From a virus (taxonomy: Duplodnaviria; Heunggongvirae; Uroviricota; Caudoviricetes), in the IMG/VR virus record IMGVR_UViG_2529292888_000007, positions 1 to 4,761 of that record: a DNA stretch of 4,761 bases. One strand, written 5' to 3'. This document shows positions 1 to 3,000 of the stretch, in pieces. Numbering within the stretch: the stretch's first letter is position 1; each line of letters opens with the position of its first letter. Position numbers: made by a program.

Positions 1-3000
1 ACATTTTTCGGGTTCTTCTGTAATGCAGCTTTAGTGCGCGCAATCAGGTCCTGATATAACGGTTTACCCACACCCCAGCGTGCCGAATCCTGGCTGGCCC
101 CCGTGTCCGCACTGAATGTCCCCTCAGCGCCCTGGGTGAATGCAGAACCACCACGACAGCATGGTACCAGCAGGATCCCCGCGTTATTCGGGATATACGG
201 AAGCAGTTTTTTGGCAATATGTAAGCCCTGGCCGACACAGCCGTACTGCCCTTTGCTCAGGTCTGCCTTCGGATGATTCAGCGTACTCATATCCTGCACA
301 TCATGCAGGCAGTGGTCGGCCGGAATGATGTCGTTATACGTACAACTCTCTCCACCCGGAGTTACCGTGCTGCGGCGCGCCAGCTGTTTAATGCGCGGAT
401 CCGGAGCATCGTAAGAATCCGGTAACGGAAGCCCTTCACCGTAGGCCATGCCGTTGGACTGTCCGGCAAGCACAACCACGTAGAACCAGTCCGGCTTAGA
501 TGAAGGGCCGACCTGTGGATCTCCTTCAATAGCCACCGCCTGCATCAGTGTGTACGGCGTAATGGCAACCGGTCCGCCGTATGGCTGCCAGCCCTCTTTC
601 AGTTTGTGTGTCAGCTTTTCCGCAAGGTCTGACGGCGACGCCGCCCTGACAACATCATAGTGTTTAAATGCCATGAATCCTCCCGGCCGGGATAATATTG
701 TGAGTAAAATGAGGAGCGGGCTGAAGTCCGGAAGTTACAGGACAATGGCAGAAGAGAGACAACAGCCCGCAATACGAAAAAGGCCGCGCTATTGCGCAGA
801 GTGATTACTGTCGGATATTATTCGCCAGCTGAAATATTACTTCACGTTTTGTTGTTTATTCCTTGCCGCCAGCGTCTCCCTGCGCGGGCTTTTTTTGTCC
901 ATAAGAAAGCCCCTCCGGAGAGGGGCTGGAGAGTGGCGCTATGTGCCATTGCATGGTGCCGGGTGCCTCCCGGTGAGTTCGGCCTGGTGCCACCAAACCC
1001 GCGTATTCTCGCTTACGATCATCAAAGAGATCATACCGTTCACCAGTCGCCCCTCCGCACAGGGGGATTCACCATGCAGAAATTTTCTAACACATCTATT
1101 ATCAGACCGGCAACAACTGACTGAATTGAGATGTATTTAACATTTATGAATCTCCGCCTGCTATTTTCACTGAGCTATTCTAAGTCAACGAAAAATAACT
1201 TCGCTGAATCCCCCTCCATTATGACAGGCATTAGTTTTAATGGTTACAGTCATCCCCGTAATTTGCGCACTGAGAAGAAGAGACTGAAGATTCCATCTGT
1301 TGGTAAATAATTCTTTATCACCCACTTTAACTGTAAAGGTATCGTCATCATTATATTTTGTATACTCCACCTTTCCAGTTACACAATCAGGCGTCGCCAG
1401 CGCACTTGCTGAAAAAAATGAAAGCGATGCAGCTATTAATAATGTTTTTTTCATTTTACCCCCTCAACTGCTAATAGTTCTGCGCATCAGAATTGCCCCC
1501 AGAGTGGATGAATCCCACAATATTTTATTGTGCGTAATCCCACGGACTCTTCCATCTGCCGGACACATAGAAGGAAACTCATCAGATGCCATTCTGGCAA
1601 CTCGCGATGCATGATGATGACAATTCAGTATTAATGCCACGCTTCCCAGAATTGCATTAATGCTTCCAAAAGAAATTCTTCCTACACGAACAGAGTCTTG
1701 TCCATGATAATCAGGCAGGACACTACTCAACCTTCCCCAGTTCAATGTAAGATCAACATCTTCAGCAGTCATTACATAAGAACGCCCACTGAGATCATCC
1801 AGTGTTGTACGAAATCCCCTCTGTATTTGCCGAAAACGTAAAGCTTCAGCTGTCACAGTAACAAACCGTAACATCGCTCTTGCCACAGACTGCGTCAGTG
1901 AGGTTCCACTATGCGACATTAAATCCAGATAAGAAGTAGTCAACGAATGGCGATTTATCTGCATCCCCGTACGACTGATCCCTGCAACACGCTGTAACGT
2001 GGTATAGCTACTGTCACCAGACAATGTAACCGCTGTTGTACCTGGAAAGGTAACATGTGAAAAATCAGCAAAGCGATAAAAAACATTATTTGTCCTGTTA
2101 ACAAATCCTGTCACATATAAATTATTTCGTTCAACAATAAGCCGTAGATTATTAAACCGCCCTTCCTCTGGATCTATCCCTCTGACATCAACTGCAAACA
2201 AATTATCCCCTGTGCCACTATCAATCATCAGTAAAGACGTACCTCCTGATGAAATAGTCTGTAATGGAGTACCTATTGCAGAGCGAATGACATTCAGCGA
2301 ATCTACATACGTCTTTGCAGTCGAGAAGTCTAAGGTAAATTCCTTCGCAACCACATTAACTGAAAAGATAACAAAGAAAAAAGTTAGCACTCTAAAAATA
2401 ATTATTTTCATATTACACAATACTCCTTGAGCACCATACGATAACTATATTCTTGACATCCTCCACCCCCTGAAGGACGGCGTTTTACGGCGCACCGGAT
2501 AAACGTAACAATAACGTAATGAAAATGATAATTATATTCAAAGAGAGCTGCAACCTTAACATATCTGGTCAGATCTCATGCGACTACTTGACGTACGTAG
2601 ACAACAACATTTATTGATACACAGGATGTTACGGACATAAAAAAGCCAGCCACTGGGGGAGGCTGGCAAACTCGTAGAGCAAAATGCTGTTACGCAAACT
2701 TCGTTACAGGGTCATCCTGCAATACAAAAAATACACAATATTTAGAAAACTAATAGTGCCATGTGCAATTTTTAAGATTTTGTTATTAATTGTGGTCGCA
2801 CCTTCCTTTCTGTGTACTTTCCGTATAGCTCACAGGATTCTGGGTACAAAAAAACCCGCGCATCGGCGGGTTAAGCAGCGTGGCAATGTAACCACTCTTA
2901 TCATGATATGCAGATTTTTACGATCGTAAACTATTTTTTCGCTGATAAAATACAGAGGTTCTCCCTCCCGGCAATTCACGCTCAACATACCGATCCATCT

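What the first reader, a model, noticed from the sequence alone, without database searches (positions are those of the whole stretch)
675..1184. 510 bp untranslated, hairpin-rich gap between stxB and nanS-p
No credible ORF on either strand fills this interval, yet it is GC-rich and holds several stem-loops: GCCCCTC-CGGA-GAGGGGC (909-926), CCCCT-CCGCAC-AGGGG (1050-1065) and CCGGG-TGCCT-CCCGG (959-973). The first two share the 9-mer GCCCCTCCG about 140 bp apart. GGTGCC occurs three times in 953-987. Besides a terminator, it could encode a structured 3' UTR, an sRNA, or be a recombination scar from acquisition of the toxin cassette.
Basis: seen in the sequence. Interest (0 to 1): 0.45.

Follow-up and report, generated by a model that had tools for sequence, protein, structure and literature searches.

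The report
Known prophage small-RNA pair after stx1B
The "empty" 510 bp between the Shiga toxin 1 B-subunit gene and the phage sialate esterase gene holds two convergent, already described Hfq-binding small-RNA genes (an STnc100-family RNA and the EcOnc42-type RNA) plus the leader of the esterase gene, so the finding is real but ordinary.

Summary
It is a full-length member of Rfam STnc100 (RF02076; 176.7 bits against a gathering score of 47; window 1106..897). They are its first stem-loop, its most conserved hairpin and its intrinsic terminator. The fold is stronger than chance (z = -3.4). Covariation in 115 homologues from about 100 Enterobacterales species loci supports it. No reading frame is conserved.

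The same family sits 75 nt after stx2B, where it is published as EcOnc27/sRNA103, and PasD is related to it. The opposite (+) strand carries the convergent partner. Published Hfq crosslinking and a Northern probe that matches the window exactly define it as EcOnc42, which Sy et al. 2020 describe as the sRNA 3' of stx1AB. It is not an AsxR/AgvB member.

The rest of the gap is a second late-strand terminator, a conserved long hairpin and the nanS-p ribosome-binding site.

Minor new points:
- a promoter signal at the base of the conserved fold;
- mosaic exchange at the conserved core;
- a compact short + strand gene with a Spot 42-like 11-mer.

Targets of both RNAs remain unknown.

Novelty: already known.

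The parts
893..1106 (-). STnc100-family sRNA gene (Rfam hit 1106..897). The predicted primary transcript is about 1077..893 (about 185 nt). Longer forms starting near 1127 are possible.
   Evidence: RF02076, 176.7 bits (GA 47), E 2.4e-41, model positions 1-206 of 206. MFE z = -3.41; 115 homologues, 91.9% of cells paired, 34 of 39 pairs with changes on both sides.
1084..1113 (-). Predicted sigma-70-type promoter of the sRNA: -35 TTGCCG (1113..1108), 18-nt spacer, -10 TAGAAA (1089..1084). It predicts a start near G1077.
   Evidence: 66 of 102 homologues have a -10-like hexamer 12-22 nt upstream of the closing helix, against 12-36 in control windows, and -35-like hexamers peak about 23 nt further upstream. 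This is a prediction only, and the -10 lacks the final T.
950..1078 (-). Core domain.
   Evidence: (I12); helices 1-4 are 88-99.5% paired, with many compensatory pair types.
898..930 (-). Intrinsic terminator of the sRNA, and probably of stx1AB transcripts.
   Evidence: 8 pairs, 6 of them G-C, loop of 4; helix 6: 93.8% paired, all 7 pairs covary.
794..896 (+). Compact convergent small-RNA gene on the opposite strand: -35 TTGCGC (794-799), 18-nt spacer, -10 TATTAT (818-823), predicted start near 830, terminator GCCAGCG/CGCGGGC (868-889) plus T7 (890-896). The RNA would be about 67 nt and is the positional analogue of AsxR/AgvB.
   Evidence: the unit is conserved even in phage 611R1, where similarity starts at TTGCGC, and the terminator stem there changes G-C to A-U and C-G to U.G; the architecture resembles AsxR/AgvB. 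It probably corresponds to the Hfq peak EcOnc08 of the identical Sp4 copy.
704..896 (+). Longer + strand Hfq-bound RNA, EcOnc42. The Hfq peak lies at about 730-812 and the Northern probe target at 788-822. The 5' end is uncertain: about 704 from the ATGCCA-17-GATAAT promoter-like site at 668-696, or further upstream if the published size of about 271 nt is exact. It is antisense to the nanS-p leader.
   Evidence: EcOnc42: Sp15, + strand, terminator predicted, about 271 nt. (the probe matches the window exactly). (described as the sRNA 3' of stx1AB; Term-seq coordinate used to convert coordinates). (promoter-like site).
775..799 (-). Second late-strand terminator-like hairpin, CUGCGCAAUAGCGCGG plus CCUUUUUCG. 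Its complement carries the -35 (TTGCGC) of the + strand short RNA.
   Evidence: conserved in Sp4, Sp5, Sp9, Sp10, Sp11, Sp17 and in Stx1a and Stx2a phages.
716..770 (-). Long hairpin (GCGGGCUG...CAGCCCGC) in the nanS-p leader. It forms on either strand.
   Evidence: I7; the stem is retained with different sequences in other prophages, and is a perfect 12 bp in Stx1a_10051.
671..690 (-). nanS-p ribosome-binding site (GGGAGGA) and start codon (ATG at 673..671).

Best explanation
The interval is the 'moron-site' small-RNA dyad of a lambdoid prophage, followed by the leader of nanS-p.

Stx (-) strand. This strand encodes a member of the STnc100 family, the same family as EcOnc27/sRNA103 downstream of stx2B, and related to PasD.
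- A long-range closing helix encloses several hairpins and is followed by an intrinsic terminator.
- The RNA is most likely made from its own promoter at the base of the fold (TTGCCG-18-TAGAAA), which predicts an RNA of about 185 nt.
- It is probably also present as the 3' end of stx1AB transcripts, which have no earlier terminator.
- By analogy with its paralogues it is an Hfq-dependent trans-acting regulator. The conserved stems act as a scaffold, and the variable segments between them probably specify targets.

Opposite (+) strand. Convergent transcription ends back to back with the STnc100 terminator.
- It gives the Hfq-bound RNA EcOnc42.
- It probably also gives a compact RNA of about 67 nt in the position AsxR or AgvB occupies in other prophages.

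Insulation. In a lysogen the opposed terminators and a second late-strand terminator keep transcription from stx1 and the sRNA promoters out of nanS-p and the lysis genes. Q-modified polymerase reads through them after induction.

Status of each step.
- Shown here: family membership, structure, covariation, absence of coding, synteny and the modular mosaic.
- Taken from the literature: Hfq binding and Northern detection.
- Inferred: transcript ends, the insulation role and the mode of action.
- Unknown: targets of this copy.
For: Family membership and structure:
- Full-length Rfam hit at 176.7 bits against a gathering score of 47.
- MFE z = -3.41.
- RNAalifold on 7 paralogues independently recovers the helices.
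- Covariation in 115 homologues: 91.9% of cells paired against 74.1% shuffled and 40-54% slid; score 0.332 against 0.120 and 0.04-0.05.

Synteny:
- In Sakai prophages Sp5, Sp9, Sp10 and Sp17, STnc100 abuts a convergent AsxR or AgvB within 0-2 nt.
- GenBank LC710660 annotates STnc100 75 nt after stx2B.

Literature:
- Convergent Hfq-binding sRNAs lie between the moron gene and the conserved ORF, with a similar organisation reported for Sp15 (PMC4104026).
- EcOnc42 is named as the sRNA 3' of stx1AB (PMC7547250).
- EcOnc27 = sRNA103 overlaps STnc100 (PMC12711010; PMC7873438).
- RpoD binds STnc100 promoter regions in Salmonella (PMC10794520).
- EDL933 RNA-seq lists a 210-nt '-' strand STnc100 copy, a length that only this copy's Rfam hit matches (PMC5331693).

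Other tests here:
- Northern probes of Tree et al. match the window exactly on the expected strands.
- A positional promoter signal is present.
- No frame is conserved and no ORF has a significant Pfam match.
Against: - No expression data for this exact copy could be inspected. Tree et al.'s table lists no sense-strand sRNA for Sp15.
- The EDL933 copy that I assign to the Stx1 phage is the least abundant of those listed with appreciable reads (RPKM 134), and it shows ribosome footprints (RCV 3.2).
- The predicted -10 (TAGAAA) is weak.
- The window lacks the TGAC that completes a TTGAC motif upstream in Sp4, Sp5 and Sp9.
- Published Northern sizes (235/247 nt for EcOnc27; about 271 nt for EcOnc08/21/42) are longer than my predicted transcripts, so the 5' ends are not settled.
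- The covariation alignment was fitted to the model's own structure.
- The + strand terminator of this copy has a stem mismatch at A871.
Confidence: 0.9

Rival explanations
1. The - strand structure serves only as the terminator and structured 3' UTR of stx1AB in this phage. The sRNA gene would be a decayed passenger that is not made as an independent regulator here.
For: - No terminator-like site lies between stx1B and 927..908.
- The -10 is weak and the upstream TTGAC motif is lost.
- No sense-strand EcOnc entry exists for Sp15.
- Abundance in EDL933 is low.
Against: - The copy scores 176.7 bits with every helix intact.
- The Stx1-type 5' half shows no visible differences in the other major Stx1a phage type.
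- The promoter elements sit at the family-typical position.
- The two roles are not mutually exclusive.
Confidence: 0.07
2. The interval encodes a small protein. Candidates are the 11-aa or 31-34-aa frames inside the sRNA, or the 110-aa antisense 'ORF b70'. The conservation would then be coding conservation.
For: - Ribosome footprints were reported on the EDL933 copy (RCV 3.21).
- Old records annotate a hypothetical protein antisense to the sRNA.
Against: - The ATG of the closing helix is present in only 6 of 115 homologues.
- The longest ORFs have a median of 21-23 aa on either strand.
- Only 14% of indel runs are multiples of 3.
- Substitutions are compensatory in stems.
- No ORF has a significant Pfam match.
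- RefSeq Sakai annotates no CDS here.
Confidence: 0.02
3. The interval is a non-functional recombination scar left by acquisition of the toxin cassette.
For: The interval is mosaic. The 5' half travels with the toxin type, while the 3' half and the partner assort independently.
Against: - The same elements occur in prophages without any toxin gene and in many genera.
- They show structural covariation.
- Paralogues are bound by Hfq.
Confidence: 0.01

Closest known systems
STnc100 (Rfam RF02076) = EcOnc27 / sRNA103 of Stx2 phages
   Same: - Full-length match to the family model, with the same helices.
- Same orientation and the same position, just downstream of the toxin B-subunit gene and upstream of nanS-p.
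- Same back-to-back arrangement with a convergent small RNA.
   Different: - The 5' half is a Stx1-linked variant with a 19-nt longer variable hairpin region.
- The 3' end is the Sp4 type, not the Sp5 type.
- The only functional data are for the Stx2 copy, where overexpression raises fimZ and espA.
PasD1/PasD2 of EPEC E2348/69
   Same: According to Zhu, Shabalina and Storz (bioRxiv 2026):
- PasD is structurally homologous to STnc100.
- It lies directly upstream of the prophage sialate esterase gene.
- It is Hfq-dependent, with many RIL-seq partners.
   Different: The same preprint reports different seed regions and target sets. The PasD sequence was not compared here.
AsxR / AgvB anti-sRNAs (RF02703 / RF02702)
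   Same: The + strand short gene shares several features with them:
- the same slot, convergent with and abutting the STnc100 terminator;
- the same promoter position, with the -35 TTGCGC inside the conserved hairpin;
- the same layout, an unstructured 5' region followed by a terminator.
   Different: - No Rfam match even at E <= 1.
- The conserved 3' block GUAUCUCAUGC.AUUGCCCGAACCCA.UCGGGC is absent.
- Its 5' region is U/G-rich, not the C/A-rich GcvB-target mimic of AgvB.
EcOnc42 / EcOnc08 / EcOnc21 (Tree et al. 2014; Sy et al. 2020)
   Same: - This is the same locus. The Northern probe is an exact match.
- The Hfq peak maps to window + strand at about 730-812.
- Sp4 carries a copy of the cassette that differs at one visible position (A871 in the terminator stem).
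   Different: The published size (about 271 nt) exceeds the distance from my predicted starts to the terminator. No function or family model exists.
Spot 42 (spf)
   Same: An identical 11-mer, UUACUUCACGU, is shared (spf nt 40-50). Its 9-nt core is invariant in all variants of the + strand cassette. It overlaps the 5' edge of Spot 42 base-pairing region III.
   Different: There is no overall homology and no Rfam hit, and the shared motifs are not collinear. Spot 42 was chosen post hoc, so the match may be chance.

Membership tests
STnc100 (RF02076) | Covariance-model score at or above the curated gathering score, over the whole model | tested here: met
   176.7 bits against 47, model positions 1-206 of 206, E 2.4e-41.
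STnc100 (RF02076) | Consensus fold: closing helix, SL1, two conserved 3' core hairpins and a terminator, maintained by compensatory change | tested here: met
   The MFE fold reproduces it, as does RNAalifold on paralogues. In 115 homologues, 34 of 39 pairs show changes on both sides, and no shuffle or slid control comes close. The alignment was fitted to the model.
STnc100 (RF02076) | Location in a prophage late region downstream of Q, tRNAs or a moron gene, in the late-transcript orientation | tested here: met
STnc100 (RF02076) | Expressed as a discrete Hfq-associated RNA | not testable with these tools
   Literature covers paralogues only. The 'EcOnc13' probe of Tree et al. is an exact antisense match to this copy's 5' region, but it is labelled for another prophage.
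AsxR / AgvB anti-sRNAs (RF02703 / RF02702) | Covariance-model score at or above gathering, with the conserved 3' block of about 42 nt | tested here: not met
   No hit at E <= 1 in the window, although both families are found in Sp5, Sp9, Sp10 and Sp17. The alignment shows a different sequence.
AsxR / AgvB anti-sRNAs (RF02703 / RF02702) | Short gene convergent with and abutting the STnc100 terminator, with its own promoter and intrinsic terminator | tested here: met
   Promoter 794-823 and terminator 868-896, conserved as a unit. The transcript start is predicted, not measured.
EcOnc42/08/21 (Tree et al. 2014) | Identity with the published Northern probe, and coincidence with the published Hfq-crosslinking peak | tested here: met
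   The probe matches 822..788 exactly. The peak 2924036-2924118 (NC_002695.1) converts to window 730-812, using the Term-seq anchor and the BLAST mapping.
Small protein gene | A reading frame conserved across homologues | tested here: not met
   and (no significant Pfam match).
Intrinsic (rho-independent) terminator | G+C-rich hairpin followed by a U-run | tested here: met
   927..908 and 799..784 on the - strand, and 868-896 on the + strand. The U-run after 927..908 is interrupted (UUCUUAU).

The most novel reading that the evidence does not exclude
The compact + strand gene (794-896) could be a third, unnamed class of the short convergent prophage sRNAs that include AsxR and AgvB. It has no Rfam family. 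Its invariant ACUUCACGU motif copies part of Spot 42's base-pairing region, so it might act as a phage-borne Spot 42 seed mimic. That would tie it to catabolite-repression targets, including sialic-acid genes such as nanC, directly beside the phage sialate esterase gene. Alternatively, the longer EcOnc42 form might act in cis as an antisense regulator of the nanS-p leader.
Probability: 0.12. Interest if true: 0.5.

Novelty: already known. Interest (0 to 1): 0.15.

Why it matters
The finding shows that a stretch left unannotated in RefSeq and in most phage records is occupied by two regulatory RNA genes flanking a major toxin operon. A machine-learning study of O157:H7 outcomes found that sequence variants in the equivalent Stx2 interval, overlapping STnc100/EcOnc27, were the strongest predictors of HUS (PMC12711010). 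The function of this family therefore matters for virulence. The Stx1 copy adds nothing new in kind, however. The useful by-products are a cleaner gene model (promoter, transcript limits and modular exchange points) and a defined, untested short RNA on the opposite strand.

Tried and rejected
- tRNA or tmRNA in the window: none.
- AsxR/AgvB membership for the + strand RNA: rejected.
- Small-protein reading: rejected.
- Whole-length RNAduplex of the sRNA against stx1AB mRNA or the nanS-p leader: uninformative, since observed energies equal those of shuffles. A first version of that script timed out.
- The 11-nt perfect complementarity between the conserved UGAAUCCCCCU motif and the last codons of stx1B: only mildly unusual (4 of 200 shuffles), absent from stx2B, and the motif is universal in a family mostly unlinked to stx. 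I treat it as probably coincidental.
- An upstream TTGACA as the -35 of the sRNA: rejected. No usable -10 follows it, it forms a hairpin in Sp5, and it is deleted in the window.
- Converting Tree et al. coordinates with one fixed offset: failed. The NC_002695.1-to-.2 offset is about 0 at Sp4, about 135 at Sp5 and about 134 at Sp15. I resolved this with probes and the Term-seq anchor.
- Papers that could not be read: the August 2026 CsrA-interactome preprint that mentions PasD2, and Beisel & Storz 2011.
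Full report
**Orientation.** The window is the reverse complement of an Stx1 prophage late region.
- On the - strand lie stx1A (2411..1464), stx1B (1454..1185) and a gene starting at 673 that runs off the left end.
- The gap is 99.6% identical to the Morioka Stx1-converting phage.
- A 682-nt stretch that includes the gap is 99.1% identical to Sakai prophage Sp15, where window coordinate = NC_002695.2 coordinate - 2,923,440.
- The downstream gene is the YjhS/NanS-p sialate esterase homologue.

**Observation.**
- The interval is 50% GC. That is high only in comparison with stx (40.7%).
- Mechanical ORFs of 110 and 81 aa exist on the + strand. One was annotated long ago as a hypothetical protein.
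- They have no significant Pfam match and are not conserved. RefSeq Sakai calls no CDS here.

**The - strand RNA.** An Rfam scan gives a single hit: STnc100 (RF02076) at 1106..897 on the - strand. It scores 176.7 bits against a gathering score of 47 and covers the whole model.
  - 1050-1065 is its first stem-loop.
  - 959-973 is its most conserved hairpin.
  - 909-926 is its terminator.
- The repeated 9-mer arises because SL1 and the terminator have nearly the same stem.
- The GGTGCC copies are the complement of GGCACC in hairpin 3, in hairpin 4 and in the 3' arm of the closing helix.
- The RNA folds to -85.8 kcal/mol (z = -3.41). A 9-bp long-range helix (1078..1070 with 958..950) encloses the hairpins.
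- RNAalifold on seven Sakai paralogues recovers the same helices.

**Covariation.** A covariance model built from the paralogues found 115 matches in about 100 species-representative loci of Enterobacterales. These loci had been fetched with the 19-nt core.
- 91.9% of cells are paired, against 74.1% in shuffles and 40-54% with partners slid.
- 34 of 39 pairs show changes on both sides.
- The covariation score is 0.332, against 0.120 (shuffled) and 0.04-0.05 (slid).
- The alignment is fitted to the model, which inflates these numbers somewhat. The many pair types in helices 1, 3 and 6 are nonetheless clear.

**Not coding.** The ATG in the closing helix is present in only 6 of 115 homologues. 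The longest ORFs have a median of 21-23 aa on either strand. Only 14% of indel runs are multiples of three.

**What is already published.**
- Tree et al. 2014 (PMC4104026) showed that Sakai lambdoid prophages carry convergent Hfq-binding sRNAs between the moron gene and the conserved downstream ORF.
  - In Sp5 these are EcOnc27 (sense; about 235/247 nt) and AsxR (antisense).
  - They report a similar organisation for Sp15.
- EcOnc27 is sRNA103 of EDL933 and overlaps the Rfam STnc100 prediction. Its overexpression raises fimZ and espA.
- A GenBank Stx2 phage record annotates STnc100 75 nt after stx2B.
- STnc100 RNA has been detected in STEC vesicles.
- Variants in this interval of Stx2a phages were the strongest predictors of HUS in a machine-learning study.
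- PasD1 and PasD2 of EPEC are structural relatives that lie upstream of the esterase gene.
- EDL933 transcriptomics lists 11 STnc100 copies.
  - The 206-nt copy at 1,353,605 fits the Stx2 locus. That rests on my recollection of the stx2B coordinates.
  - The 210-nt '-' strand copy fits only this Stx1-type hit length.
  - That copy has RPKM 134 and ribosome coverage value 3.2. This assignment is my inference.

**The + strand RNA.** My Rfam scan of eight Sakai prophage loci shows STnc100 abutting a convergent AsxR or AgvB within 0-2 nt in Sp5, Sp9, Sp10 and Sp17. There is no such match in the window, Sp4 or Sp11.
- In Sp15, Tree et al. list EcOnc42 on the strand antisense to stx1, with a predicted terminator and a band of about 271 nt.
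- Their EcOnc08/21/42 probe is identical to the window's - strand at 822..788, so it detects a + strand RNA.
- Sy et al. 2020 say that stx1AB is bookended by StxS and 'the sRNA EcOnc42 3' of the toxin'.
- They place the StxS 3' end at 2,925,944 in NC_002695.1. That equals the tR' U-run at about window 2638, which places the EcOnc42 Hfq peak at window + strand about 730-812.

**The rest of the gap.** Alignment of the segment from the STnc100 terminator to the nanS-p start across prophages and phages shows three shared elements, in the late orientation:
- a second hairpin plus U-run (799..775);
- a long hairpin (770..716) whose stem is kept with different sequences;
- the nanS-p ribosome-binding site.

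**A compact + strand gene.** The block TTGCGC (794-799), an 18-nt spacer, TATTAT (818-823), and so on to the hairpin GCCAGCG/CGCGGGC plus T7 (868-896) is conserved as a unit on the + strand.
- This holds even in phage 611R1, which lacks nanS-p and loses all similarity upstream of TTGCGC.
- The 611R1 terminator stem changes G-C to A-U and C-G to U.G. The wobble pair works only on the + strand.
- This predicts an RNA of about 67 nt laid out like AsxR/AgvB.
- If the version offset at Sp4 is about 0, as the probe positions suggest, the EcOnc08 peak of the near-identical Sp4 copy coincides with this short RNA. EcOnc21 and EcOnc42 then mark a longer transcript that starts upstream.
- That longer transcript may start from the ATGCCA-17-GATAAT site at 668-696.
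- The published size of about 271 nt is longer than either prediction, so the 5' ends are open.

**Promoter of the - strand RNA.** Upstream sequences were anchored on the closing helix.
- 66 of 102 homologues have a -10-like hexamer 12-22 nt upstream of it, against 12-36 in control windows.
- -35-like hexamers peak about 23 nt further upstream.
- In the window this is TTGCCG-18-TAGAAA, predicting a start near 1077 and an RNA of about 185 nt.
- If so, the first 30 positions of the Rfam model would be promoter DNA in many members.
- The 235/247-nt forms of EcOnc27 imply an additional upstream start or processing site.
  - This would lie near window 1127 by alignment, where a TGtTAAATA element sits.
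- RpoD binding at Salmonella STnc100 promoters is reported.
- No terminator-like site lies between stx1B and 927..908. Transcripts from Pstx1 should therefore also carry this RNA as their 3' end. That is an inference.

**Modularity.**
- The common Stx1a phage type (Stx1a_10051) shows no visible differences from the window between the stx1B stop and the conserved core CACCGGGAGGCACCCGGCA. It then switches to an Sp9-type 3' end with an AgvB-type partner.
- Stx2a_PV11-59 has the Stx2-type 5' half joined to the window-type 3' end and partner.
- The window's antisense cassette occurs in 57 phage records. The >=99% matches listed are VT1-Sakai, the Morioka Stx1 phage, Nil3 and CP-1639, and most of the rest are Stx2a or non-toxin phages.
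- The conserved hairpin therefore acts as a crossover point.

**Leads not established.**
- The short + strand RNA shares UUACUUCACGU with Spot 42 (nt 40-50).
  - Only 3 of 2000 shuffles reach 11 nt.
  - The 9-nt core is invariant in all cassette variants.
  - The stretch overlaps only the 5' edge of Spot 42 region III, by my placement of the published region III mutations on the spf sequence.
  - nanC is a known Spot 42 target.
  - Spot 42 was picked post hoc, so I give this lead a low probability.
- The conserved UGAAUCCCCCU of STnc100 is perfectly complementary to the last codons of stx1B. This is weakly significant and probably chance.

**Verdict.** The element is a member of known families in a known arrangement. 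Novelty is 'already known' and interest is low.

Noticed in passing
L119 4823-5482 (E. albertii); L103 4083-5956; L055 6319-7026; L096 2035-3655; L149, L162 and L199 (viral contigs): STnc100-family units occur as tandem runs of 3-5 copies about 250 nt apart, often next to prophage tRNA genes, in several genera. I found no mention of tandem arrays in the papers I read.
   Followed up: partly
e.g. L064 5879-5983, L071 1530-1632, L102 5488-5590, L084 723-833: One subclass of homologues matches only the core domain (model positions about 31-141, about 100-110 nt, 60-65% GC). They lack the 3' extension and terminator of the E. coli type. Several are preceded by a TTGACC -35-like hexamer.
   Followed up: no
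window 1083-1117 (+) = Sakai L003 2524-2558: The Northern probe listed as 'EcOnc13' (assigned to Sp3, about 187 nt) in Tree et al. 2014 is an exact antisense match to the 5' region of the Sp15 STnc100 copy. It has no match within 6 mismatches in the Sp3 locus. This may be a labelling mix-up, or the blot may have detected the Stx1-phage RNA.
   Followed up: partly
window 1061-1071 (-) and 1205-1215 (-); also 674-690: The family's most conserved motif, UGAAUCCCCCU, is perfectly complementary to AGGGGGAUUCA in the last codons of stx1B (11 of 11; 4 of 200 shuffles reach 11 nt). It also pairs at 10 of 11 positions (one a G.U pair) with the nanS-p ribosome-binding region GGGAGGAUUCA.
   Followed up: partly
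window 837-847 (+): The predicted short + strand RNA shares the 11-mer UUACUUCACGU with Spot 42 (spf nt 40-50). ACUUCACGU is invariant in all variants of the cassette. Phage 611R1 also shares UGGCUGAAUA with spf nt 60-69.
   Followed up: partly
window 1084-1106 (-): A positional promoter signal across 102 homologues places the -10 inside the first 30 positions of the Rfam STnc100 model. The curated family boundary may therefore include promoter DNA.
   Followed up: partly
window about 1114-1118 (-) compared with Sp4, Sp5 and Sp9: The Stx1-type copy lacks 4 nt (TGAC) present in the Sp4, Sp5 and Sp9 copies. In Sp5 those bases form part of a 5' hairpin, UGACAG-UUGC-CUGUCA.
   Followed up: no
window 871 (+): The + strand terminator stem carries an A.G mismatch in this phage and in VT1-Sakai. 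It is a perfect 7-8 bp stem in Sp4, PV11-59 and Stx2_95 (-11.5 against -17.7 kcal/mol for the 68-nt RNA).
   Followed up: no
window 2634-2668 (-): The tR' terminator and StxS 3' end lie upstream of stx1A. I used them only as a coordinate anchor, via the Term-seq position 2,925,944 in NC_002695.1.
   Followed up: no
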